Virus record (IMG/VR): IMGVR_UViG_3300025389_001172 | Span: 77,322-141,321 of that record | Source: a virus | Taxonomy: Duplodnaviria; Caudoviricetes | Length of the DNA stretch: 64,000 nucleotides | Direction: 5' to 3' (one strand) | Shown: piece by piece, positions 6,717-30,007 of the stretch | Numbering within the stretch: the stretch's first letter is position 1 | How the letters are laid out: each line of letters opens with the position of its first letter | Made by a program: the position numbers and the translations under genes | Notes under the pieces: model-generated | Database searches by the model: none | The model's input: only the letters and a program-made list of their open reading frames with translations | What the model was told of the DNA's origin: nothing

Positions 6717-7787
6717 TTAGTTGGCCGCTCTTAATCGCTCTCTTTTTACGAATCCTTTTACTCCTATCGCTATTTCTACTTCTACTACATCCTTCACGTC
6801 TGTGTCTTTAACCGTTGCTACAGTGTTGGCTGGTACTACTACGAAAGGTCCATATAAGGGTCCTTCGAGATTTGATTTACGTTTATAAACTTTGGTATTA
6901 GCCGCAAACACCATCTTTACTATTTTGGGTTCTTCTGCTTTTTTGACTTCTGGAACTACTACTACTGGAGGTGGAGGCGGTGCTACAGGTGCCTGCACAG
7001 ATTCAGGTTTACGATAGTCCCAGATACCCTTGCGCTCACCTTCCTTGATTAGTTCTACCACAGCGGCTTCGATCGTGGCCTTGACAGCTAGCGTACCTGG
7101 TTCGTTTATGGTTAATCCTGCTTCAGCTTCAAATGCCTGTGTACCGTCGTCTAGGAATTTTAACACGGCAAAACTGTCGGCAGTGCTGTACACTATCTTG
7201 GTCACGTGTACAGCCGCCAAGACCTTGCCGGTATTGACACTTATGGCTCGCAAACTGATAGTCACTGTGTCTTTGCTGTACTGTGTCTGTGTGCCTATAC
7301 CCAGGAAACGATGTGCGGCTCCGCCTGATTCAGATCCCGAATCATAACCAATGATACCACCTTCCATGATGATGCCGGCAAACTGCATGGGCATGAGCGG
7401 TTTGGCATTGACACCTTCATAGGCTTCACGCATCTGGCGTATGATTGTGCGTTCTTTGGTTAAAGCATCTATATTGATTCTTTCTACAACATCAAACCAT
7501 TGCCCGTGCCCCACATCCTGTAGGGCCTTGATCAAGAACACTTCGGCCCCTTGTGTGACTGCTGTACTCAGACTAGCAATACCCGATACTGGTTTGCGTT
7601 GTCCGGTTTTATCAGCAAAATTATACACTGCCACGCTGAGCTTTCGCCCCTCTGGTGGTGGTATCGAATCAAACTCTTTTTGCATGCGATTTGGCACCAC
7701 TTCGGGTTGGTATTCAAAACCGGCTTTTTGAACTATAGCACAACCTGCAAGTGCAAGTATCATGACGAGGGATAGAATTTTTTTCAT
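6717..7787 (-). CDS. csgG: curli secretion channel lipoprotein CsgG with C-terminal Pro linker and SH3-like extension
   Basis: Lipobox LAGC; AVYNFADKTGQRKP, STAVTQGA, WFDVVER, LTKERTIIR, EGGIIGYD. Confidence 0.92.
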   Translation of the reverse strand: MKKILSLVMILALAGCAIVQKAGFEYQPEVVPNRMQKEFDSIPPPEGRKLSVAVYNFADKTGQRKPVSGIASLSTAVTQGAEVFLIKALQDVGHGQWFDVVERINIDALTKERTIIRQMREAYEGVNAKPLMPMQFAGIIMEGGIIGYDSGSESGGAAHRFLGIGTQTQYSKDTVTISLRAISVNTGKVLAAVHVTKIVYSTADSFAVLKFLDDGTQAFEAEAGLTINEPGTLAVKATIEAAVVELIKEGERKGIWDYRKPESVQAPVAPPPPPVVVVPEVKKAEEPKIVKMVFAANTKVYKRKSNLEGPLYGPFVVVPANTVATVKDTDVKDVVEVEIAIGVKGFVKRERLRAAN

Positions 7788-11425: not shown

Positions 11426-13321
11426 TCAATCTTTTTTCACTTCTGTAGCATCCACATCTACTACACCGTCATCTGCGGGCGGAGTATCAGTAGTAGCATC
11501 AGCAGGAGGCTCTTTGGCCTTTTGGATTGGCTGTGCTGCCGCATATAGGTCGCTGGTCTTCTGTGTGATCACTTCTCTGTCTTCACCCTTGACTGCTTCC
11601 TCTACTTCTGCCATGGCCGATTCGATCTTGGTGACTTCATCTGGTGTTAGTTTGTCTTTGACTTCTGCTAGATCAGCTCGGACTGAGTTCAACTGTGACT
11701 CTGCGAAGTTACGGGTTTCGATCAGCTCACGTTGCTTCTTGTCATCCTCGGCATTGGCTTCGGCTTCCTTGATCATGCGATCGATCTCTTCCTTGCTGAG
11801 TCCAGAATCACTCTTGATGGTGATCTTGTTTTCTTTGCCTGTACCCTTGTCCTTGGCACTGATCTTCATGATACCGTTGGCATCGATGTCAAAGGTCACT
11901 TCGATCTGCGGAGTACCACGGCGTGCTGGAGGAATACCAGTTAGGTCGAACTCGCCCAATAACTTGTTATAGTTGGCCAGTTCACGCTCACCTTGGAATA
12001 CCTTGATAGTCACGGCAGGTTGATTGTCTTCAGCTGTGGAGAACACCTGGCTGGTCTTGGTAGGGATAGTGGTGTTCTTCTGGATCACCTTGGTCATGAC
12101 CCCGCCCATGGTCTCGATACCTAGACTCAAAGGAGTCACGTCTAGCAACAGGACATCAGTTCGTCCACCACCTAGTACATCACCTTGGATGGCAGCACCA
12201 GCGGCCACCGCTTCGTCTGGGTTTACATCCTTGCGAGGAGCCTTGCCAAACAGTTTCTCTACGGCTTCCTGTACCTTGGGCATGCGAGTCATACCACCTA
12301 CCAGTATCACTTCGTCGATGTCGTCTGTAGTGACACCTGCATCTGTCATAGCGGTCTTGCATGGTGCTAGGCTTCGTTGGATCAACTCATCAACTAGGCT
12401 TTCCAGTTTGGCACGAGTCAGTTTGATATTAAGATGTTTTGGACCACTGGCATCTGCTGTGATGTAGGGCAGGTTGACATCTGTCTGTGCTGAACTAGAC
12501 AGTTCGATCTTGGCTTTTTCTGCGGCTTCTTTCAAGCGTTGCAGTGCCAATACGTCTTTGGTTAGATCAACACCTGAATCTTTCTTGAATGAGTCAACCA
12601 AGAAGTCCATGATGCGTTGGTCGAAGTCTTCACCGCCGAGGAATGTGTCACCGTTGGTAGACAAGACTTCGATCTGCTTTTCACCTTCCACGTTGGCGAT
12701 CTCGATAATGCTGACATCAAATGTACCACCACCTAGATCATAGACAGCGATCTTGCGATCTTTTTTATCCTGTTTGTCTACACCATAGGCCAAGGCAGCC
12801 GCTGTGGGTTCGTTGATGATACGCAGGACTTCTAAGCCTGCGATCTTTCCTGCATCTTTGGTAGCTTGACGTTGTGAATCATTGAAGTAGGCTGGAACTG
12901 TGATAACCGCCTGATCAACTTCGTAGCCAAGATAGTCTTCAGCGGTCTTTTTCATCTTGCGGAGAACTTCTGCTGAGATCTGCGGAGGTGCTAGTTTTTC
13001 ACCGTTGGCTTCTACCCACGCATCTCCGTTGTCTGCTTGGATGATCTGGTAGGGCATCAAGTCGATGTCTTTCTGTACAGCATCTTCTGTAAATTTACGA
13101 CCGATCAAGCGTTTAGACGCATAGATCGTGTTCTTTGGATTGGTCACTGCCTGGCGTTTAGCTGAGGCACCGACTAGGATTTCATCGTTGGCATAGGCCA
13201 CGATGGATGGCGTTGTACGAGCGCCTTCTGAATTTTCGATTACTTTGGGGATTCCGCCTTCGATAACAGCCACGCAACTATTAGTGGTGCCAAGGTCAAT
13301 TCCGATCACAACTTTACTCAT
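11426..13321 (-). CDS. dnaK: chaperone DnaK (Hsp70)
   Basis: [33 protein letters not shown]; start corrected to MSKVVIG (AAGGAG RBS). Confidence 0.97.
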
Positions 13322-13401
13322 TAGTTTTCTCCTTATTAAGTGAGTATATCCGGGCACTATGCCCATTCGTAGCATCCATTAGGTATACCACACCTTTATT
13401 T

Positions 13402-13430
13402 AGTATACATTTAATCTATCTTTTTGTCAA
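13402..13430 (-). promoter_or_regulatory. sigma70-like promoter for dnaK overlapping a TAAATA element
   Basis: TTGACA-17 bp-TATACT followed by AAATA; hsp20 has the analogous TTGACA-17-TATAAATA. Confidence 0.6.
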
Positions 13431-13719
13431 CCTGATCTTCGTCAATCACATGATCCGCCACTGGTCCAAACCGATCTAGATAGTTTTCTTTGTAGCTCTT
13501 TTTAGATGCTTCAGCATCGTATTCTGCCTGCAATTCGCTATTTTCCTTGATTTTTAACAGCCAAGGATGGAGCAGTTTATCAGTGATCCTGCGACTCAGT
13601 TCTTCTATGACCTGTTCAGCGGGCTCGCCCTGTGCGATACGTTGTAGTGCTATGCCGTACTCATAGATGCGGACACGTTCTACCCACTTTTCATATTCTT
13701 CGTTAGGATCGTATTTCAT
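13411..13719 (-). CDS. stand-alone glutamyl-tRNA reductase (HemA) dimerisation-domain-like protein
   Basis: ERVRIYEYGIALQRIAQGEPAEQVIEELSRRITDKLLHP resembles the HemA C-terminal helical domain; start MKYDP by ATGA overlap. Confidence 0.65.
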   Translation of the reverse strand: MKYDPNEEYEKWVERVRIYEYGIALQRIAQGEPAEQVIEELSRRITDKLLHPWLLKIKENSELQAEYDAEASKKSYKENYLDRFGPVADHVIDEDQVDKKID

Positions 13720-13943
13720 CCGCCCCACCTCAACATAAACATAAGCTGATCCTGTTCTGTCTTGAAAAAATATGTGCTACGATAGTCTGGATCGAATACT
13801 GCCGCCGCGGGATCTTCTCCTAACTTGTACCAAGTTTCATTCCAAGGTCCTATATTTTCTACGCACCACTGCTGTACCTCGGGCCACCGATGTTTGGTAT
13901 AGGCTGTATATATTAATCTTTTGTTAAGTTTAGGATAGGTCAT
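13716..13943 (-). CDS. LRW-family small protein
   Basis: WC..G..W..YFF..EQDQLMFMLRWGG; start by TAATG overlap. Confidence 0.75.
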   Translation of the reverse strand: MTYPKLNKRLIYTAYTKHRWPEVQQWCVENIGPWNETWYKLGEDPAAAVFDPDYRSTYFFKTEQDQLMFMLRWGG

Positions 13944-14158
13944 TATGATCCCCACCTCAATAAGAACATCATATGATCTTGGGCACTGTGGAACTCAAAA
14001 ACACCGTCTCCAATGTACCACCATCCTCGATGGCCAAATCTCTCTTCACACCATTCCAGGCAAGGCTTCCAACCCAGATAACGATGGCCTGATATAGTGT
14101 TTAGTGATTCATATGGTGCAGGTATGCTGGCTATATGTCTTTTTGATATTTCGTTCAT
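13943..14158 (-). CDS. LRW-family small protein
   Basis: MNEISK...WCEERFG...FEFHSAQDHMMFLLRWGS. Confidence 0.75.
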   Translation of the reverse strand: MNEISKRHIASIPAPYESLNTISGHRYLGWKPCLEWCEERFGHRGWWYIGDGVFEFHSAQDHMMFLLRWGS

Positions 14159-14343
14159 TATGAACCCCACCTTAATAAGAACATCATATGATCCTGAGCA
14201 TTGTAGAAATATATACACCTGTTTCTTTCAAACCAAGTCTTGTGTCCAACAGGTCCAAACTGTCGGTAGCACCAGCTTAAAACCTCCAGATCCACCTGAT
14301 TGTTTAACTCAACTATGTGGTATTCGTGACGATCTACCTTCAT
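14158..14343 (-). CDS. LRW-family small protein
   Basis: MKVDRH...WCYRQFGP...YFYNAQDHMMFLLRWGS. Confidence 0.75.
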   Translation of the reverse strand: MKVDRHEYHIVELNNQVDLEVLSWCYRQFGPVGHKTWFERNRCIYFYNAQDHMMFLLRWGS

Positions 14344-14543
14344 AGCCACCTCAACACAAACATTAAATAATCCTGCTCACGATTAAACTCAAATACACCT
14401 TCACCCTGGTACCGCCAACCGGCCTTGACAGTTTGCTCGCACCAGCGTATGCAGGGTGACCATCCTGGATAGGTTAGGCCCATAATTTCCTGCTGACCTG
14501 GAGATGAGACGCTGGCTATATATCTATCTTGTTGACTGTTCAC
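14340..14543 (-). CDS. LRW-family small protein
   Basis: GTG start (GTGA overlap); WCEQTV...FEFNREQDYLMFVLRWL. Confidence 0.75.
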   Translation of the reverse strand: MNSQQDRYIASVSSPGQQEIMGLTYPGWSPCIRWCEQTVKAGWRYQGEGVFEFNREQDYLMFVLRWL

Positions 14544-14854
14544 GACCACCTCAAAATAAACATAGTAGCATCTTTTTCTTTTTCAAAGATAAAGTCTCGG
14601 CCCCGACGCTCGTATGCACCTTTACAATTTTCTTCCAACCAGTACCTGATATCTATGGCGTGTTTGTTATCTACTAGAGTAGGCAACATAACACGAGTCC
14701 ATCCTATACTTTTGAGCATACCCCAAAGTATTTCACGATCAATTTCTTCTTGCATTTCCTTGGCCTTAGCTTCTATCATTTCTTTTTCTAAGATAGTCTG
14801 CTGGTCATTTACCCACGTTTTCATACTGTCTATACATTCTGGACTTAGATTCAT
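14540..14854 (-). CDS. LRW-family small protein
   Basis: MQEEIDREI...WLEENC...FIFEKEKDATMFILRWS. Confidence 0.75.
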   Translation of the reverse strand: MNLSPECIDSMKTWVNDQQTILEKEMIEAKAKEMQEEIDREILWGMLKSIGWTRVMLPTLVDNKHAIDIRYWLEENCKGAYERRGRDFIFEKEKDATMFILRWS

Positions 14855-15099
14855 GCCCACCTCAGGGTAAACAACAAATAATCCCGTTCATCCTGCCACA
14901 CCACCCGGTCAGGATTATACATAATTCTAACACCGGGATTTAGCTCTTCAAACTTACGATCAAATAACCGTTCTCGAGTATGATTATTACAATCTGGATA
15001 ATTTGAACTTATGTAATACACACAGTTTAACAAAGATTTGGGTATCTTTTTCATTCGTTCTTCGTGTGGAAAATCTACAGGAATTACAATTTCTATCAT
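14851..15099 (-). CDS. LRW-family small protein
   Basis: MIEIV...WQDERDYLLFTLRWA. Confidence 0.7.
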   Translation of the reverse strand: MIEIVIPVDFPHEERMKKIPKSLLNCVYYISSNYPDCNNHTRERLFDRKFEELNPGVRIMYNPDRVVWQDERDYLLFTLRWA

Positions 15100-15314
15100 G
15101 ACCACCTCAATAAAAACAATGTGTATAATTTTTTGTCGAGTTGGTAGCATCTCTGGCCGTCCCGGGTCTCCCCTACCGTCCAGGGACCTTGTTGTCTTAT
15201 CCAGATTTCAATTTCTTCTCGATAGACTTCTACCACAACAATATGATGCGTTTTGCCTAAAACTTGAAATCCGGGCATGACCTTACCAAAACAATCAAGG
15301 TATATATATGTCAT
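15096..15314 (-). CDS. LRW-family small protein
   Basis: MTYIY...LYTLFLLRWS. Confidence 0.7.
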   Translation of the reverse strand: MTYIYLDCFGKVMPGFQVLGKTHHIVVVEVYREEIEIWIRQQGPWTVGETRDGQRCYQLDKKLYTLFLLRWS

Positions 15315-15501
15315 AGCCACCTCAGTGCAAATAGTGCGGCTTTTTTTGGACAGTCGAATTCCCACCGTCGGCCCATACCGCGTTCTCGCCTAGATATCGG
15401 CCCAGTCTGAATTTGAGACCCAGAGATTCTATTATTTCCCGGTCAATTTGGTCTTGCATTGCCTTTGCTATTGATGTCATTATTGCATCTTCTGTAATCA
15501 T
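15311..15501 (-). pseudogene. frameshifted LRW-family cassette
   Basis: Frame 0 MITEDA...MQDQIDREI stops at 15322; the -1 frame reads GMGRRWEFDCPKKAALFALRWL* ending at 15311 with the usual ATGA overlap. Confidence 0.65.
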
Positions 15502-15728
15502 AGCCACCTCAACAAGAACATGGCCAGATCTTGTTCTTTCTCGAAACGAAAGATATGATAGGCCATACGAGCGTGATAACCCAGGGTGTCAATACACCAC
15601 TGATTGATCTCATCATAGATCGATTCTGTGAGGGGAACGGCATAATCTACACCAGATAGTTTATACGAGGGTTGATCCCACACCTCGGCTACCCATTTAC
15701 GTCCCTGTCGTCTGTAGTCTATGTCCAT
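15498..15728 (-). CDS. LRW-family small protein
   Basis: WCIDTLG...FRFEKEQDLAMFLLRWL. Confidence 0.75.
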   Translation of the reverse strand: MDIDYRRQGRKWVAEVWDQPSYKLSGVDYAVPLTESIYDEINQWCIDTLGYHARMAYHIFRFEKEQDLAMFLLRWL

Positions 15729-15973
15729 TCTGCGTATTTCATCTTAAACATCAGTATATCCTTGTCATCCCAGAAGTAAAATCCATAACAGACGTCATAC
15801 ATGGGACTGACGTCGCTGGTGTTGACTTCTTCCATCCATAGGAAACTATGGCAGTTCTCTATGGCCCAGTATTTGATATCTTTGATCTTTGGCGGATCTC
15901 CTAACACTATCAGCGTACACTGATCTAGGAGTTCCTGTGGAGGTTCATAGGGAAATAAGTAGTTACTGATCAT
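15719..15973 (-). CDS. LRW-family small protein, divergent end
   Basis: WAIENC...FYFWDDKDILMFKMKY. Confidence 0.65.
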   Translation of the reverse strand: MISNYLFPYEPPQELLDQCTLIVLGDPPKIKDIKYWAIENCHSFLWMEEVNTSDVSPMYDVCYGFYFWDDKDILMFKMKYAEWT

Positions 15974-16230
15974 CTCATCAGGCTCCCTACAAACTCCACG
16001 GTGATCTGAGACTCAGGTATGACATCCCCTCCATGTTCCAATATAAACATAGTAGCATCTTTTTCACTGACAAAATGCCAGTCCATCCAATCTGTATCTA
16101 TATTGGTCATGTATCTATCACCGGGCAGTCCGAACTGTTCAAAGGTGCGTGCCAAGATCTCATTCCACATGACATGCTCGTTGGCAGGATCATTGATCTC
16201 ATTCCAATAGAGTCGCACAGTTGTGGTCAT
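15970..16230 (-). CDS. LRW-family small protein, extended end
   Basis: FGLPGDRY...WHFVSEKDATMFILEHG. Confidence 0.65.
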   Translation of the reverse strand: MTTTVRLYWNEINDPANEHVMWNEILARTFEQFGLPGDRYMTNIDTDWMDWHFVSEKDATMFILEHGGDVIPESQITVEFVGSLMR

Positions 16231-17051
16231 ACAGTAAACGAAAATCCAGGATCAAAATGGTCTGTGGGCTCATAGCCAACATAGCCACGAGGATTACTGA
16301 CAACACGAGTCTCACCGATATAATAACTTACCGGATCGTGCATATGGCCATGTACCCAAGTATGGATGTTGGGATTGTCCAGAATGAACTGATCCATGTT
16401 GCTGGAGTATCCACCATTCATAGTGGTATCATACCGATATTTCTCGTTGACACTCTGGAAGCTGGGAGAGTGATGAGTAATCACAACAAAGGGCTTGTCA
16501 CGGTTCAACTCCAATATGGTCTTGAAATACTGTTTGGTCTTGAAGTGTATCTCAGCAGTACGTTCCGGCGTCAGCTTGTGCCAGACGCTTCTATCAGGAT
16601 AGAATTCTGTGATTGCCCTGTAGTCATTCATCCCCATCTTGAGATGCATGGCCGTGATTGGGTCGCCTCCATTGAGGTCGGTCCATAGGGTAGAGCCCAT
16701 AAACATGACTCCACGATATTCTTCTACCTGATCCTCTAGCAGGGTCACGTTGGCTGGCAAGATCTTTAGGAGTTCATCGTAGGTCTTGTAGAGTTTGCCA
16801 CCATAGTGCTCGTGATTGCCCATGACCATGAATACCTTGTCATATTTGGCGCATTCTACACGGAAGAATTCACTACAGGGAAATTCTCGATTGGGTTCTC
16901 CGGTTGGGTATAGAGTTTTGGTACTGTGGAATTCTGTGGTGAGCCTGCGAGCTTCGCAGACGTCACCGGCGAGAATTAAAACCTCCCCACCTGGGAGTTC
17001 GCAGTATCCACCAACATCTAGATGTAAATCACTTACCAAACTCACCTTCAT
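16227..17051 (-). CDS. calcineurin-like metallophosphoesterase
   Basis: VSDLH, LAGD, GNHEHY, TLWTD, THHSP, HGHMH, NPRGY. Confidence 0.9.
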   Translation of the reverse strand: MKVSLVSDLHLDVGGYCELPGGEVLILAGDVCEARRLTTEFHSTKTLYPTGEPNREFPCSEFFRVECAKYDKVFMVMGNHEHYGGKLYKTYDELLKILPANVTLLEDQVEEYRGVMFMGSTLWTDLNGGDPITAMHLKMGMNDYRAITEFYPDRSVWHKLTPERTAEIHFKTKQYFKTILELNRDKPFVVITHHSPSFQSVNEKYRYDTTMNGGYSSNMDQFILDNPNIHTWVHGHMHDPVSYYIGETRVVSNPRGYVGYEPTDHFDPGFSFTV

Positions 17052-17052
17052 A

Positions 17053-17319
17053 TCAACTCCACCTTAATCCAAAATGTGCGGCTTCTTTTTCAGAGCCAAA
17101 ATAGATACGGATCCTACCGTTGTCGGCACTCATCCACGCCCACAGTGTATTCTTTTTACCAGTTTTATAGTAGTAGTCCAGCTCACAGCTAGGTCCCCAG
17201 GTTTCCCAGCACCACTGTCTGTGTTCTACAAATGTGTCGGCATCTTTATAGATATACTGAACCATATGGGTAAACGTATCTCCACCTGAGTATTGACGTG
17301 TTAGTTTTTTGATCTTCAT
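17053..17319 (-). CDS. LRW-family small protein, first gene of the early operon
   Basis: WCWETWGPS...IYFGSEKEAAHFGLRWS; ATG 6 nt after TATAAT. Confidence 0.75.
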   Translation of the reverse strand: MKIKKLTRQYSGGDTFTHMVQYIYKDADTFVEHRQWCWETWGPSCELDYYYKTGKKNTLWAWMSADNGRIRIYFGSEKEAAHFGLRWS

Positions 17320-17325
17320 ATTATT

Positions 17326-17354
17326 ATTATACAATCTTTTTGGTAAAAAGTCAA
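17326..17354 (-). promoter_or_regulatory. sigma70 early promoter for the LRW array
   Basis: TTGACT-17 bp-TATAAT. Confidence 0.75.
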
Positions 17355-28952: not shown

Positions 28953-29036
28953 GATTTAGTTTCCTTTTTGTTATGATACATCTTTTAGATTAAGATATAT
29001 TCTATATTATATATCCTATATGAGATTACACCTATG

Positions 29037-29064
29037 AAAAAGCGGCCATAAATAGCCGCTTTTT
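29037..29064 (-). terminator. terminator after tmRNA
   Basis: AAAAAGCGGC-TATTTATG-GCCGCTTTTT. Confidence 0.8.
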
Positions 29065-29390
29065 GGTTGTTTTGGTTACAAGGTAAGTCCTACCCCGTGA
29101 GGATCATGCCGCTAAGGCATATACCTCATCATTAGATGCGTTAGCATTTATAGATTTGCTTGATTAAGGATCATCGCCTATCCTGTTGCCTTTTTCGCTA
29201 TCTCACCATGTCGAACCCAGGTCAGACCCATCAAAAGAACACTACCCTGTATTACGCCTCAGGCATACCCGATGCTCAGGATTCTTGCTCTACTAGCCAC
29301 CGTGACGGATAGTAATGTTCTTATGGTGGATCTGGTGGGAATCGAACCCACGTCCACAATGCCTTTGCTAGAAAGGAATTACAACAATTC
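29065..29390 (-). ncRNA. ssrA: circularly permuted (two-piece) tmRNA
   Basis: Acceptor piece ends GTGGG-TTCGATT-CCCAC-CAGATCC-A-CCA at 29324; coding piece starts GGGTCTG-ACCTGGGTTCGAC at 29229 (7-bp acceptor stem with G3.U70); tag ANASNDEVYALAA* at 29145-29104; outer ends approximate. Confidence 0.92.
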
Positions 29391-29392
29391 TT

Positions 29393-30007
29393 TTATTGAT
29401 TCCAATACTTAGGAACACCATATACTTCTACAACAACTCTACGATTCTCACTGCGACCTTCAGCTGTTTTATTTGTAGCCACTGGCTCTCTTTCGCCTTT
29501 GGTGTCTGTGTATATACGACCTGCTTCTAGACCTCGACTGATTAAATATTTTTTTACAGCTTCTGCACGACGCTGACCTAACTGTAAATTATAACTGTCT
29601 GTACCAACACTGTCAGTATGACCTACTACGATCGCAATTTCTACTGTCATGGTATTCAATTTCATCACTAATTGATCTAATTCTATTTTACCCGCTGGCT
29701 TGATTACTGATCGATCAAAATCAAATAATGAGTTTGCTAGATAGGTTAATTTACCTGTTACTACAGCTTTAGGAGTCGGTGCTGGATTTACTGCCGGCGC
29801 TTTCGTTGGCACCACTGGCTGTAATGCCCCATCACATCTTGGATCGGCTGAGGCCGGTGTCCATGAGCTATCTCTCCAGCATAGGCCAGAGGAATTGGTC
29901 ACGGGACTACCCTGGCTGGTCCAATTGTCGTTGACCATAGGCTCTGGTAAAAGATTAGCCTGTGCTACGCCTGCGACTGCTAATAATCCAAACAATAATA
30001 CTTTCAT
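29393..30007 (-). CDS. OmpA-family peptidoglycan-binding protein
   Basis: LCWRDSSWTPA, LFDFDRS, GHTDSVG, NLQLGQRRA, NRRV. Confidence 0.9.
   Translation of the reverse strand: MKVLLFGLLAVAGVAQANLLPEPMVNDNWTSQGSPVTNSSGLCWRDSSWTPASADPRCDGALQPVVPTKAPAVNPAPTPKAVVTGKLTYLANSLFDFDRSVIKPAGKIELDQLVMKLNTMTVEIAIVVGHTDSVGTDSYNLQLGQRRAEAVKKYLISRGLEAGRIYTDTKGEREPVATNKTAEGRSENRRVVVEVYGVPKYWNQ

What the first reader, a model, noticed from the sequence alone, without database searches (positions are those of the whole stretch)
13716..17354. Self-chaining gene-cassette array: the Leu-Arg-Trp C-terminus is the next gene's Shine-Dalgarno
Seen: about 11 small diverged paralogues (WC..G..W..FxF..ExD..FxLRW) in one sigma70 early operon. 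In all nine LRW ends (13716, 13943, 14158, 14340, 14540, 14851, 15096, 15311, 17053) Arg is always AGG, giving (T/C)T(G/A)AGGTGG, followed within 1-2 codons by a stop overlapping or abutting the next start (ATGA, GTGA, TAATG, TGATATG). GAGGTG is complementary to the 16S anti-SD. The two members lacking LRW have longer tails. Inference: each unit brings the RBS for whatever follows and the shared ~30-bp end offers microhomology, so cassettes can be gained, lost or shuffled without breaking expression - an integrase-free, integron-like accordion of early effectors.
Basis: partly seen in the sequence, partly recalled or inferred. Interest (0 to 1): 0.8.

Follow-up and report, generated by a model that had tools for sequence, protein, structure and literature searches.

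The report
Protein tail doubles as ribosome site
In an uncultured freshwater giant phage, a chain of small related genes each ends in Leu-Arg-Trp spelled with a rare arginine codon, so the same bases form the next gene's ribosome-binding site; this is a clean, family-wide case of ordinary translational coupling, not a new gene-capture machine.

Summary
On the minus strand, 17354-13411, one sigma70-like promoter is followed by 11 intact paralogues and one frameshifted one. A metallophosphoesterase gene interrupts the chain.

- **In the window:** AGG is 7.5% of Arg codons in this genome.
- **The family:** it is virus-only and unnamed, with about 3,000 50%-identity clusters.
- **Across the family:** I analysed 828 members from 130 loci. 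AGG at this Arg is 81-96% when the next start overlaps the stop, 33% with a 0-5 nt gap, and 26% with no downstream gene. Internal Arg codons are 8.6% AGG. The Leu codon co-varies (TTG), extending the match to GAGGUG. Predicted binding to the anti-SD is about -10 kcal/mol at optimal spacing.

The codon choice is therefore selected for translating the next gene.

The 'integron-like accordion' is only partly supported. Relatives differ by whole-gene gains, losses and reorderings. However, homology-block ends are just as sharply placed at ordinary gene ends in the same contigs. No integrase, attC-like or PeSL-like element is present, and about a quarter of overlapping junctions work without AGG.

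The scan found this before on other DNA (e1-5318405, e1-5340958, e1-5337245). Protein function is unknown.

The parts
17326..17354 (-). Sigma70-like promoter TTGACT-17 nt-TATAAT. The -10 hexamer ends 6 nt before the ATG of the first gene, so the first cistron is probably leaderless.
   Evidence: 11 of 12 matches. One search shows the same -35/-10/6 nt/ATG layout in relatives L010, L002, L008 and L005.
17053..17319 (-). Member A (88 aa), ends GLRWS with TTA AGG TGG AGT TGA T ATG. The SD here is AAGGTGGAG.
   Evidence: Orthologues P0002-P0017 use AGA in four relatives, where TGGAG supplies GGAG.
16227..17051 (-). Metallophosphoesterase (274 aa), a non-family gene served by A's junction. Its own end overlaps the start of C (ATGA) without an SD.
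   Evidence: PF00149.
15970..16230 (-). Member C (86 aa). It has the family core, but LEH replaces LRW and an 18-residue tail follows.
   Evidence: Orthologues P0018-P0034.
15719..15973 (-). Member D (84 aa). MKY replaces LRW, with tail AEWT. The next start lies 10 nt before its stop.
15498..15728 (-). Member E (76 aa), ends FLLRWL with TTG AGG TGG CTA TGA.
15311..15501 (-). Member F, broken. The N-terminal ORF (59 aa, related to I) stops at the TGA inside CTGAGG. The family C-terminus WEFDCPKKAALFALRWL lies in the -1 frame. The frame change falls near 15372-15364, and an A_AAA_AAG heptamer lies at 15346-15340.
   Evidence: E = 0.003; repeats D6 and D8.
15096..15314 (-). Member G (72 aa), ends LFLLRWS with TTG AGG TGG TCA TGA.
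14851..15099 (-). Member H (82 aa), ends LFTLRWA with CTG AGG TGG GCA TGA.
   Evidence: Orthologues P0010, P0028, P0029, P0033.
14540..14854 (-). Member I (104 aa), ends MFILRWS with TTG AGG TGG TCG TGA. The next start is GTG.
14340..14543 (-). Member J (67 aa, GTG start), ends MFVLRWL with TTG AGG TGG CTA TGA.
   Evidence: Orthologue P0003.
14158..14343 (-). Member K (61 aa), ends MFLLRWGS with TTA AGG TGG GGT TCA TAATG.
13943..14158 (-). Member L (71 aa), ends MFLLRWGS with TTG AGG TGG GGA TCA TAATG. This is the member whose structure was predicted.
   Evidence: pLDDT 83.5, pTM 0.72.
13716..13943 (-). Member M (75 aa), ends MFMLRWGG with TTG AGG TGG GGC GGA TGA. Its junction serves the non-family gene that follows.
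13411..13719 (-). GlutR-dimerisation-like protein (102 aa), the last cistron. It is a recurrent terminal gene of these arrays.
   Evidence: PF00745 in 3 of 30 downstream genes scanned.

Best explanation
This is a tandem array of an old, diverged, virus-only family of small proteins. The predicted fold is a two-layer alpha/beta domain, and its last helix ends ...D..MF.LRW one or two residues before the stop. The genes are packed into one operon behind a host-type promoter.

The amino-acid motif is a property of the protein. Its spelling is a property of the mRNA. Leu-Arg-Trp is written TTG-AGG-TGG, which gives GAGGUGG. This strong Shine-Dalgarno site has its GAGG core 5 nt before an AUG that overlaps the stop (NNA-TGA). 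A terminating ribosome, or a fresh 30S subunit, is thereby held in place to start the next cistron. This is termination-reinitiation or SD-assisted coupling repeated down the chain.

Selection on the two synonymous positions (Arg AGG, Leu third base G) is maintained only while a gene follows at that geometry. The arrays grow, shrink and reorder by whole genes, as accessory regions of large phages usually do.

Shown: the sequence layout, the codon statistics and their dependence on downstream geometry, and the variability of the arrays.

Inferred: that the site works as an SD in the host (probably a freshwater Burkholderiales), that translation is coupled, that the operon is early, and any role of the junction in recombination.
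For: - **Window:** 10 of 10 LRW ends use AGG, against 7.5% genome-wide.
- **Family-wide:** the search patterns did not include the LRW codons. They gave 828 unique members in 130 loci, of which 653 end [LIM][RK]W within 6 residues of the stop and 567 have a one-residue tail.
- **AGG share at this Arg:** 81% with a -4 overlap (n=342), 96% with a -1 overlap (n=71), 33% with a 0-5 nt gap, about 17% with a 6-25 nt gap, and 26% with no downstream gene (n=38). Internal Arg codons of the same genes are 8.6% AGG. Fisher p = 1.8e-9.
- **After collapsing relatedness:** in 330 clusters at 55% identity the shares are 0.85, 0.41 and 0.30.
- **Leu codon:** the Leu before AGG is TTG in 72% and G-ending in 85%, against 37% G-ending internally and 43% beside non-AGG codons. 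This fits pairing to the anti-SD rather than a rare-codon effect.
- **Predicted duplex with the canonical 16S tail:** median -10.4 kcal/mol for AGG junctions, -4.8 for other Arg codons, -4.2 for Lys, and -2.4 at random positions.
- **Natural controls in close relatives:** the terminal gene of the L002 array, followed by a convergent gene, uses CGT. A-type genes whose TGG-AGT supplies GGAG use AGA.
- **SD use by the phage:** AAGGAG-type sites precede many other genes.
- **Likely host:** the phage DnaK is 73-80% identical to Comamonadaceae and other Burkholderiales, a group that uses SD.
- **Literature:** intragenic SDs are typical of ATGA/TGATG overlaps, and removing them cut reinitiation by 60-90% in 3 of 5 E. 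coli gene pairs and abolished it in a fourth (PMC6728339).
Against: - There is no expression or ribosome data for this phage or host, and the host is inferred.
- About 19% of ATGA-type junctions use other Arg codons, and about 20% of members have Lys. These have weak predicted SD yet overlapping starts, so the SD is not required for chaining.
- The within-cluster contrast (the same orthologue with and without an overlapping downstream gene) goes the right way, but only 12 against 4 (p = 0.08).
- AGG is still 26% where I saw no downstream gene. This could be inertia, or small genes I missed.
Confidence: 0.8

Rival explanations
1. Self-chaining cassette system. The shared junction is a recombination substrate that lets cassettes be gained, lost, shuffled and captured without an integrase, making the array an integron-like accordion.
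For: - Close relatives differ by whole genes. The window has F*, G, H, I, J, K between E and L, where L010 has none. L010 has K' and I' after M. The alignments break inside the junction motif.
- Copy number is 3-24 in complete 340-374 kb genomes.
- Within arrays, 49% of homology-block ends lie within 20 nt of a junction, against 11% for random positions.
- Junctions are breakpoints about twice as often as ordinary gene ends (46% against 23%).
- Unrelated genes sit behind LRW junctions.
Against: - Ordinary gene ends outside the arrays collect homology-block ends just as sharply: 32% within 10 nt against 35% at junctions. The pattern is therefore what selection for intact genes gives anywhere in these phages.
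- The twofold per-boundary excess may reflect dispensability, or false ORFs in the control set.
- Exact shared sequence at junctions is only about 9-15 nt. Longer similarity follows from amino-acid conservation, with synonymous sites differing (and direct reading).
- The metallophosphoesterase does not carry the junction at its own 3' end.
- No recombinase, hairpins or inverted repeats were found.
Confidence: 0.25
2. The uniform AGG is identity by descent from recent tandem duplication, not selection.
For: The genes are paralogues in tandem. K and L share 23 of 25 nt at their ends.
Against: - The paralogues are 14-30% identical, and neighbouring synonymous sites differ: Leu TTG/TTA/CTG and Phe TTC/TTT.
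- AGG tracks downstream geometry across 225 independent clusters.
- AGG is replaced by CGT or AGA exactly where the SD is not needed.
Confidence: 0.03
3. The LRW motif itself exists because of the RNA signal. The protein tail is a by-product of needing GAGGUGG before the next start, and has no structural role.
For: The motif sits at a fixed distance from the stop in 87% of members. Trp has only one codon, which supplies the UGG.
Against: - LKW members keep the basic residue and the Trp but lose the SD.
- Members with no downstream gene keep LRW with other codons.
- The preceding F and L are the most conserved columns, with varied codons.
- The model puts the motif in the last helix of a confidently predicted domain.
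Confidence: 0.07
4. AGG is kept as a rare, slowly read codon that pauses the ribosome just before termination, for example to time reinitiation or folding, rather than as an SD.
For: AGG is the second-rarest Arg codon here (7.5%). Its enrichment is tied to overlapping stop/start geometry, which a pause model could also use.
Against: - The Leu codon's third base co-varies to G only beside AGG, extending complementarity to the anti-SD.
- CGG, which is rarer still (4.6%), is not favoured.
- The spacing, with the GAGG core 5 nt before AUG, is that of an SD.
Confidence: 0.05

Closest known systems
Translational coupling at -4/-1 stop-start overlaps with an intragenic Shine-Dalgarno site (termination-reinitiation; Huber et al. 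2019, PMC6728339)
   Same: Co-directional genes overlap as ATGA or TAATG, with an SD inside the 3' end of the upstream gene at working distance. The SD helps but is not always essential.
   Different: Here the SD is written into a conserved three-residue protein motif of one large family. The coupling module is therefore inherited with the gene and repeated 10 times in a row here, and up to about 24 times in relatives. It gives a measurable family-wide codon signature of 81-96% AGG.
PeSL (promoter-early stem-loop) cassettes in hyperplastic regions of T4-type phages (Arbiol et al. 2010, PMC2839356; Comeau et al. 2014, PMC4122927)
   Same: A short repeated expression signal flanks small, variable, mostly unknown genes in an accessory region of a large phage. 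Whole-gene insertions, deletions and replacements between relatives occur at those repeats.
   Different: PeSLs are intergenic promoter-plus-terminator units with hairpins, and they form mini-circles. Here there is no intergenic DNA, no internal promoter or hairpin, and the repeat is coding sequence plus SD plus stop/start. Recombination at the repeat is not shown here.
Integron gene-cassette arrays
   Same: One upstream promoter drives a variable chain of small promoterless genes. Expression of a cassette can depend on translation of what precedes it.
   Different: There is no IntI integrase and no attC or attI. The cassettes are mostly paralogues of one family rather than unrelated genes. 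There is no evidence of excision or insertion.
Synonymous-site constraint from a downstream gene's SD (e.g. ccdA-ccdB, PMC9555053; short spacers adapted to the SD, PMC2784483)
   Same: Codons at the 3' end of an upstream gene are constrained because they form the next gene's ribosome-binding site.
   Different: Those are single operons or genome-wide averages, not a protein family that carries the constraint with it.

Membership tests
SD-assisted translational coupling at overlapping gene pairs | Co-directional genes with -4 (ATGA/GTGA) or -1 (TAATG/TGATG) stop-start overlap or a very short spacer | tested here: met
   Nine of the ten LRW junctions in the window overlap in this way. The tenth (17053) has a 1-nt spacer. 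Family-wide, 413 of 487 coupled Arg junctions overlap by -4 or -1.
SD-assisted translational coupling at overlapping gene pairs | SD complementary to the 16S 3' end within about 12 nt upstream of the downstream start, inside the upstream gene | tested here: met
   GAGGTGG lies 2 or 5 nt before the start. Predicted duplex energy is -8 to -13.8 kcal/mol in the window and median -10.4 family-wide, against -2.4 at random positions. The canonical anti-SD was assumed; the host 16S was not examined.
SD-assisted translational coupling at overlapping gene pairs | Translation of the downstream gene depends on translation of the upstream gene and/or on the SD | not testable with these tools
   This needs reporter or ribosome-profiling data. 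Only the evolutionary signature of selection is shown.
Integron | IntI-type tyrosine recombinase next to the array | tested here: not met
   There is no PF00589 match in the 141-kb record, and the controls were positive. The record is only 39% complete, so absence from the whole phage is not proven.
Integron | attC-type imperfect inverted repeats between cassettes | tested here: not met
   The genes overlap, so no intergenic DNA exists. There are no inverted repeats of 12 nt or more within 60 nt, apart from one palindrome inside a gene. There is no Rfam match.
PeSL regulatory cassettes | Strong sigma70-like promoter plus terminator stem-loop between the small genes | tested here: not met
   Only the promoter at 17354 and the one at 13430 reach 11 of 12 matches. 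There are no terminator-like hairpins between members.
Any named protein family (Pfam, PHROGs, PDB folds) | Significant profile or fold match | tested here: inconclusive
   - No Pfam or PHROG match for 10 window members or 10 distant members.
- Foldseek against the PDB gave nothing at E <= 0.001.
- VIA-align gave best Z 5.4, with generic ferredoxin/KH/ACT/RRM-like sandwiches.
- BFVD and Atlas matches are only uncharacterised phage proteins.

The most novel reading that the evidence does not exclude
The LRW-x-stop junction is a heritable plug-and-play unit that does two jobs. It couples translation, so that a whole chain is read as a relay from one leaderless start. It is also the preferred crossover point, letting giant phages lengthen, shorten and reorder the chain and capture unrelated genes behind it (phosphoesterase, carboxypeptidase, GlutR-dimer protein). 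That would be a recombinase-free gene-capture architecture carried by a protein family.
Probability: 0.2. Interest if true: 0.8.

Novelty: new variant of a known kind. Interest (0 to 1): 0.55.

Why it matters
- It is an unusually clean natural demonstration that selection for a downstream ribosome-binding site fixes synonymous codons. The built-in controls are the same residue with and without a following gene.
- The constraint is carried by a whole protein family rather than by one operon.
- It defines a large family (about 3,000 clusters at 50% identity), virus-only, that is absent from Pfam and PHROGs. The family makes up arrays of 3-24 genes in freshwater giant phages.
- It offers a compact 15-nt coupling linker (TTGAGGTGGNNATGA) that could be tested for polycistronic design.
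- It tempers the attractive 'integron without integrase' idea with a control showing that breakpoints at gene ends are the rule in these genomes anyway.

Tried and rejected
- **Megablast and tblastn against GenBank phage records:** no match.
- **Pfam and PHROGs:** nothing on window members or on distant members.
- **The search for related loci with the 11-paralogue alignment:** failed because no stretch was conserved enough. Three subfamily alignments replaced it.
- **Fold searches (PDB Foldseek, VIA wide, BFVD, Atlas) and the protein-atlas look-up:** no functional lead.
- **P0036:** the top hit of the deep search, 1307 aa with 17 weak stretches not covering LRW. It looks like a low-complexity artefact and was dropped.
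- **Integron and PeSL readings:** rejected on missing defining parts.
- **Identity by descent as the cause of AGG:** rejected.
- **Gene conversion between 3' ends:** apparent tracts (K/L 23 of 25 nt; C/I 24 of 27 nt) are largely explained by amino-acid identity with one- or two-codon residues. I do not claim conversion.
- **Junction-specific recombination:** the enrichment of homology-block ends lost its special status once the same measure was applied to ordinary gene ends.
- **Literature searches:** no paper describes this family or motif.

Full report
**What is there**

The window is the last 64 kb of a 141-kb IMG/VR virus record. CheckV puts it at 39% complete, so the phage is in the 350-kb class. 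It has no relative among GenBank phage records.

The finding lies on the minus strand. A sigma70-like promoter, TTGACT-17-TATAAT at 17354-17326, matches 11 of 12 positions. Its -10 hexamer ends 6 nt before the ATG of the first gene. The same layout is kept in four related contigs, so the first cistron is probably leaderless.

The genes then follow without any intergenic DNA:
- A (17319-17053)
- a metallophosphoesterase (17051-16227)
- C, D, E
- a broken gene F
- G, H, I, J, K, L, M
- a GlutR-dimerisation-like gene (13719-13411)

A second strong promoter-like site at 13430 precedes dnaK.

The eleven intact small proteins (61-104 aa) align with 14-30% identity. They share W[C]xExxG ... FxFxxExDxxMFxLRW.

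The 9-mer (T/C)T(G/A)AGGTGG occurs ten times on this strand of the window, all at the ends of these genes. In every case Arg is AGG, against 7.5% AGG among Arg codons of long ORFs in this genome.

The stop overlaps or abuts the next start exactly as described (ATGA, GTGA, TAATG, TGATATG). The two members without LRW (C, D) have longer tails.

The 15311 end belongs to a broken gene. Its N-terminal ORF, which is related to I, stops at the TGA inside CTGAGG. The family C-terminus WEFDCPKKAALFALRWL is in the -1 frame, and the frame change lies near 15372-15364.

**The family**

It has no Pfam or PHROG model. A profile of 43 members finds 3,038 representatives of 50%-identity clusters at E <= 0.001. 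Nearly all are 55-140 aa, with the domain at the extreme C-terminus ending LRW or LKW plus one to three residues.

AlphaFold2 on member L gives a confident small alpha/beta domain: three strands, a helix, two strands, and a helix (pLDDT 83.5, pTM 0.72). The motif lies in the last helix.
- Foldseek finds nothing in the PDB.
- VIA-align gives only generic two-layer sandwiches at Z about 5.
- BFVD and the ESM Atlas return only uncharacterised phage proteins.

The function is unknown.

**Is AGG selected for the next gene's ribosome site?**

I fetched 148 IMG/VR loci with three subfamily alignments. Their search peptides did not include the LRW codons. I also used ten metagenomic contigs of close relatives.

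An iterated HMM found 828 unique members in 130 loci. Of these, 653 end [LIM][RK]W within six residues of the stop, and 567 have a one-residue tail.

| Downstream geometry | AGG share at the Arg | n |
|---|---|---|
| Next start overlaps by 4 nt (ATGA) | 81% | 342 |
| Next start overlaps by 1 nt | 96% | 71 |
| Gap of 0-5 nt | 33% | 43 |
| Gap of 6-25 nt | about 17% | 23 |
| No downstream gene seen | 26% | 38 |
| Internal Arg codons of the same genes | 8.6% | |

Fisher p = 1.8e-9 for coupled against uncoupled. Collapsing to 330 clusters at 55% identity gives 0.85, 0.41 and 0.30. Within clusters that contain both states, the contrast goes the expected way 12 to 4 (p = 0.08).

The preceding Leu codon co-varies. 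Beside AGG it is TTG in 72% and G-ending in 85%, against 37% G-ending internally. This extends the pairing to GAGGUG and argues for the anti-SD rather than a rare-codon pause.

Predicted duplex energy with the canonical 16S tail has these medians:
- AGG junctions: -10.4 kcal/mol
- other Arg codons: -4.8
- Lys: -4.2
- random positions: -2.4

With a one-residue tail, the GAGG core lies 5 nt before the AUG, which is the usual optimum.

Close relatives supply neat controls. The last gene of the L002 array faces a convergent gene and uses CGT. A-type genes, whose TGG-AGT supplies GGAG, use AGA in four relatives.

The phage uses AAGGAG-type sites before many other genes. Its DnaK is 73-80% identical to those of Comamonadaceae and other Burkholderiales, and its tmRNA tag ends YALAA. 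The likely host is therefore an SD-using freshwater betaproteobacterium.

All this matches what is known of overlapping gene pairs. An SD inside the upstream gene is typical. Removing it cut reinitiation by 60-90% in 3 of 5 E. coli pairs, abolished it in a fourth, and had no effect in the fifth (PMC6728339).

**Limits of that reading**

About one in five ATGA junctions uses another Arg codon, and about 20% of members have Lys. These junctions have weak predicted SDs yet the same overlaps. The site boosts chaining but is not a condition for it. No expression data exist.

**Is it a self-assembling cassette system?**

Arrays are not static. Gene orders are:

| Contig | Order |
|---|---|
| Window | A-MPE-C-D-E-F*-G-H-I-J-K-L-M |
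| L010 | A-MPE-C-D-E-L-M-K-I' |
| L008 | A-MPE-x-C-D-E-L-K-n1-n2 |
| L002 | A-MPE-C-D-E-L-K |

In L002 the whole array is inverted relative to the dnaK module. DNA alignments between the window and L010 break inside the junction motif. Five complete 340-374 kb genomes carry 3, 5, 11, 23 and 24 copies in one or two arrays.

LRW junctions also serve unrelated genes: the metallophosphoesterase, GlutR-dimer-like proteins, and a D-Ala-D-Ala carboxypeptidase. About half of the 'non-family' followers look like distant members that the HMM missed.

Within arrays, 35% of internal ends of homology blocks between contigs lie within 10 nt of a junction, against 6% expected. The same measure at ordinary gene ends outside the arrays gives 32% against 3%. 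That sharpness is therefore the general mosaic pattern of these phages and not a property of the motif.

Per boundary, junctions carry a block end about twice as often (46% against 23%). This fits a hyperplastic accessory region but does not single out microhomology as the cause.

Several other points weigh against a cassette system:
- Exact shared sequence at junctions is only 9-15 nt.
- There is no tyrosine recombinase in the record.
- There are no inverted repeats or hairpins between genes.
- There is no Rfam match.
- There are no internal promoter-terminator units of the PeSL kind (PMC2839356).

**Verdict**

The mechanism is ordinary SD-assisted coupling at overlapping genes, made unusual because the signal is written into a conserved protein tail and so travels with every copy. 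The 'integron-like accordion' goes beyond the evidence.

Earlier follow-ups in this scan reached similar conclusions on three other genomes. My added points are the geometry-resolved codon table, the cluster-level control, the Leu co-variation, and the gene-end control for breakpoints.

Noticed in passing
window 15311-15501 (-): Member F is broken by what looks like a 1-nt loss near 15372-15364 (GAC GGT GGG AAT TC). In the resulting frame, the A7 run reads CA A_AAA_AAG (15346-15340), the classic -1 slippery heptamer. A -1 slip there would restore the ...AALFALRWL frame. This could be a pseudogene, an assembly error in a G run, or an adventitious 'saviour' frameshift. No intact orthologue was found in the fetched loci.
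   Followed up: partly
window 17317-17354 (-); L010, L002, L008, L005 near 6940-7003: The -10 hexamer of the array promoter ends 6 nt before the ATG of gene A in all five related phages. The first cistron is therefore probably translated from a leaderless mRNA, and every later cistron takes its SD from the gene before it.
   Followed up: partly
window 13411-13719 (-); L010:9649-9957; L008:9809-10120; L154:5666-5950: A stand-alone glutamyl-tRNA-reductase dimerisation-like protein of about 100 aa recurs as the last gene of these arrays, coupled to an LRW/AGG junction.
   Followed up: partly
window 11426-13375 (-) and 29013-29416 (-): The phage DnaK is 73-80% identical to DnaK of Limnohabitans, Rhodoferax, Rubrivivax, Hydrogenophaga and other Burkholderiales. 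The phage tmRNA has the tag ANASNDEVYALAA. Together these point to a freshwater betaproteobacterial host.
   Followed up: partly
L002-L004: In one group of relatives the whole array is inverted relative to the GlutR-like/dnaK/hsp20/clpS/heme oxygenase/bilin reductase/csgF-csgG block, and ends against a convergent gene. The terminal member there has lost AGG (CGT).
   Followed up: yes
G000:C1:53699-53872 (-), outside the window: This is a solitary family member ending FALKWAE (Lys AAA), with no overlapping downstream start. Another LRW member with AGA lies near C1:53400. Dispersed copies lack the AGG spelling.
   Followed up: partly
L010 versus window, along the array: Protein identity to the closest relative falls steadily along the operon: A 85%, C 85%, D 93%, E 75%, L 66%, M 64%, K 58%, I 38%. 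The promoter-distal half is both the reshuffled and the faster-evolving part.
   Followed up: no
L002:11111-11350, L005:2447-2686, L008:4288-4527, L010:4134-4373: A phage-encoded ribosomal protein bS21, overlapping clpX, lies a few kb from the array in all relatives. bS21 sits next to the anti-SD on the 30S subunit, so it might bear on how these SD-rich chains are read. This is pure speculation here.
   Followed up: no
L152:678-1481: A 268-aa D-alanyl-D-alanine carboxypeptidase (Peptidase_S11, E = 2e-29) is coupled directly behind an LRW/AGG junction in another giant-phage contig.
   Followed up: no
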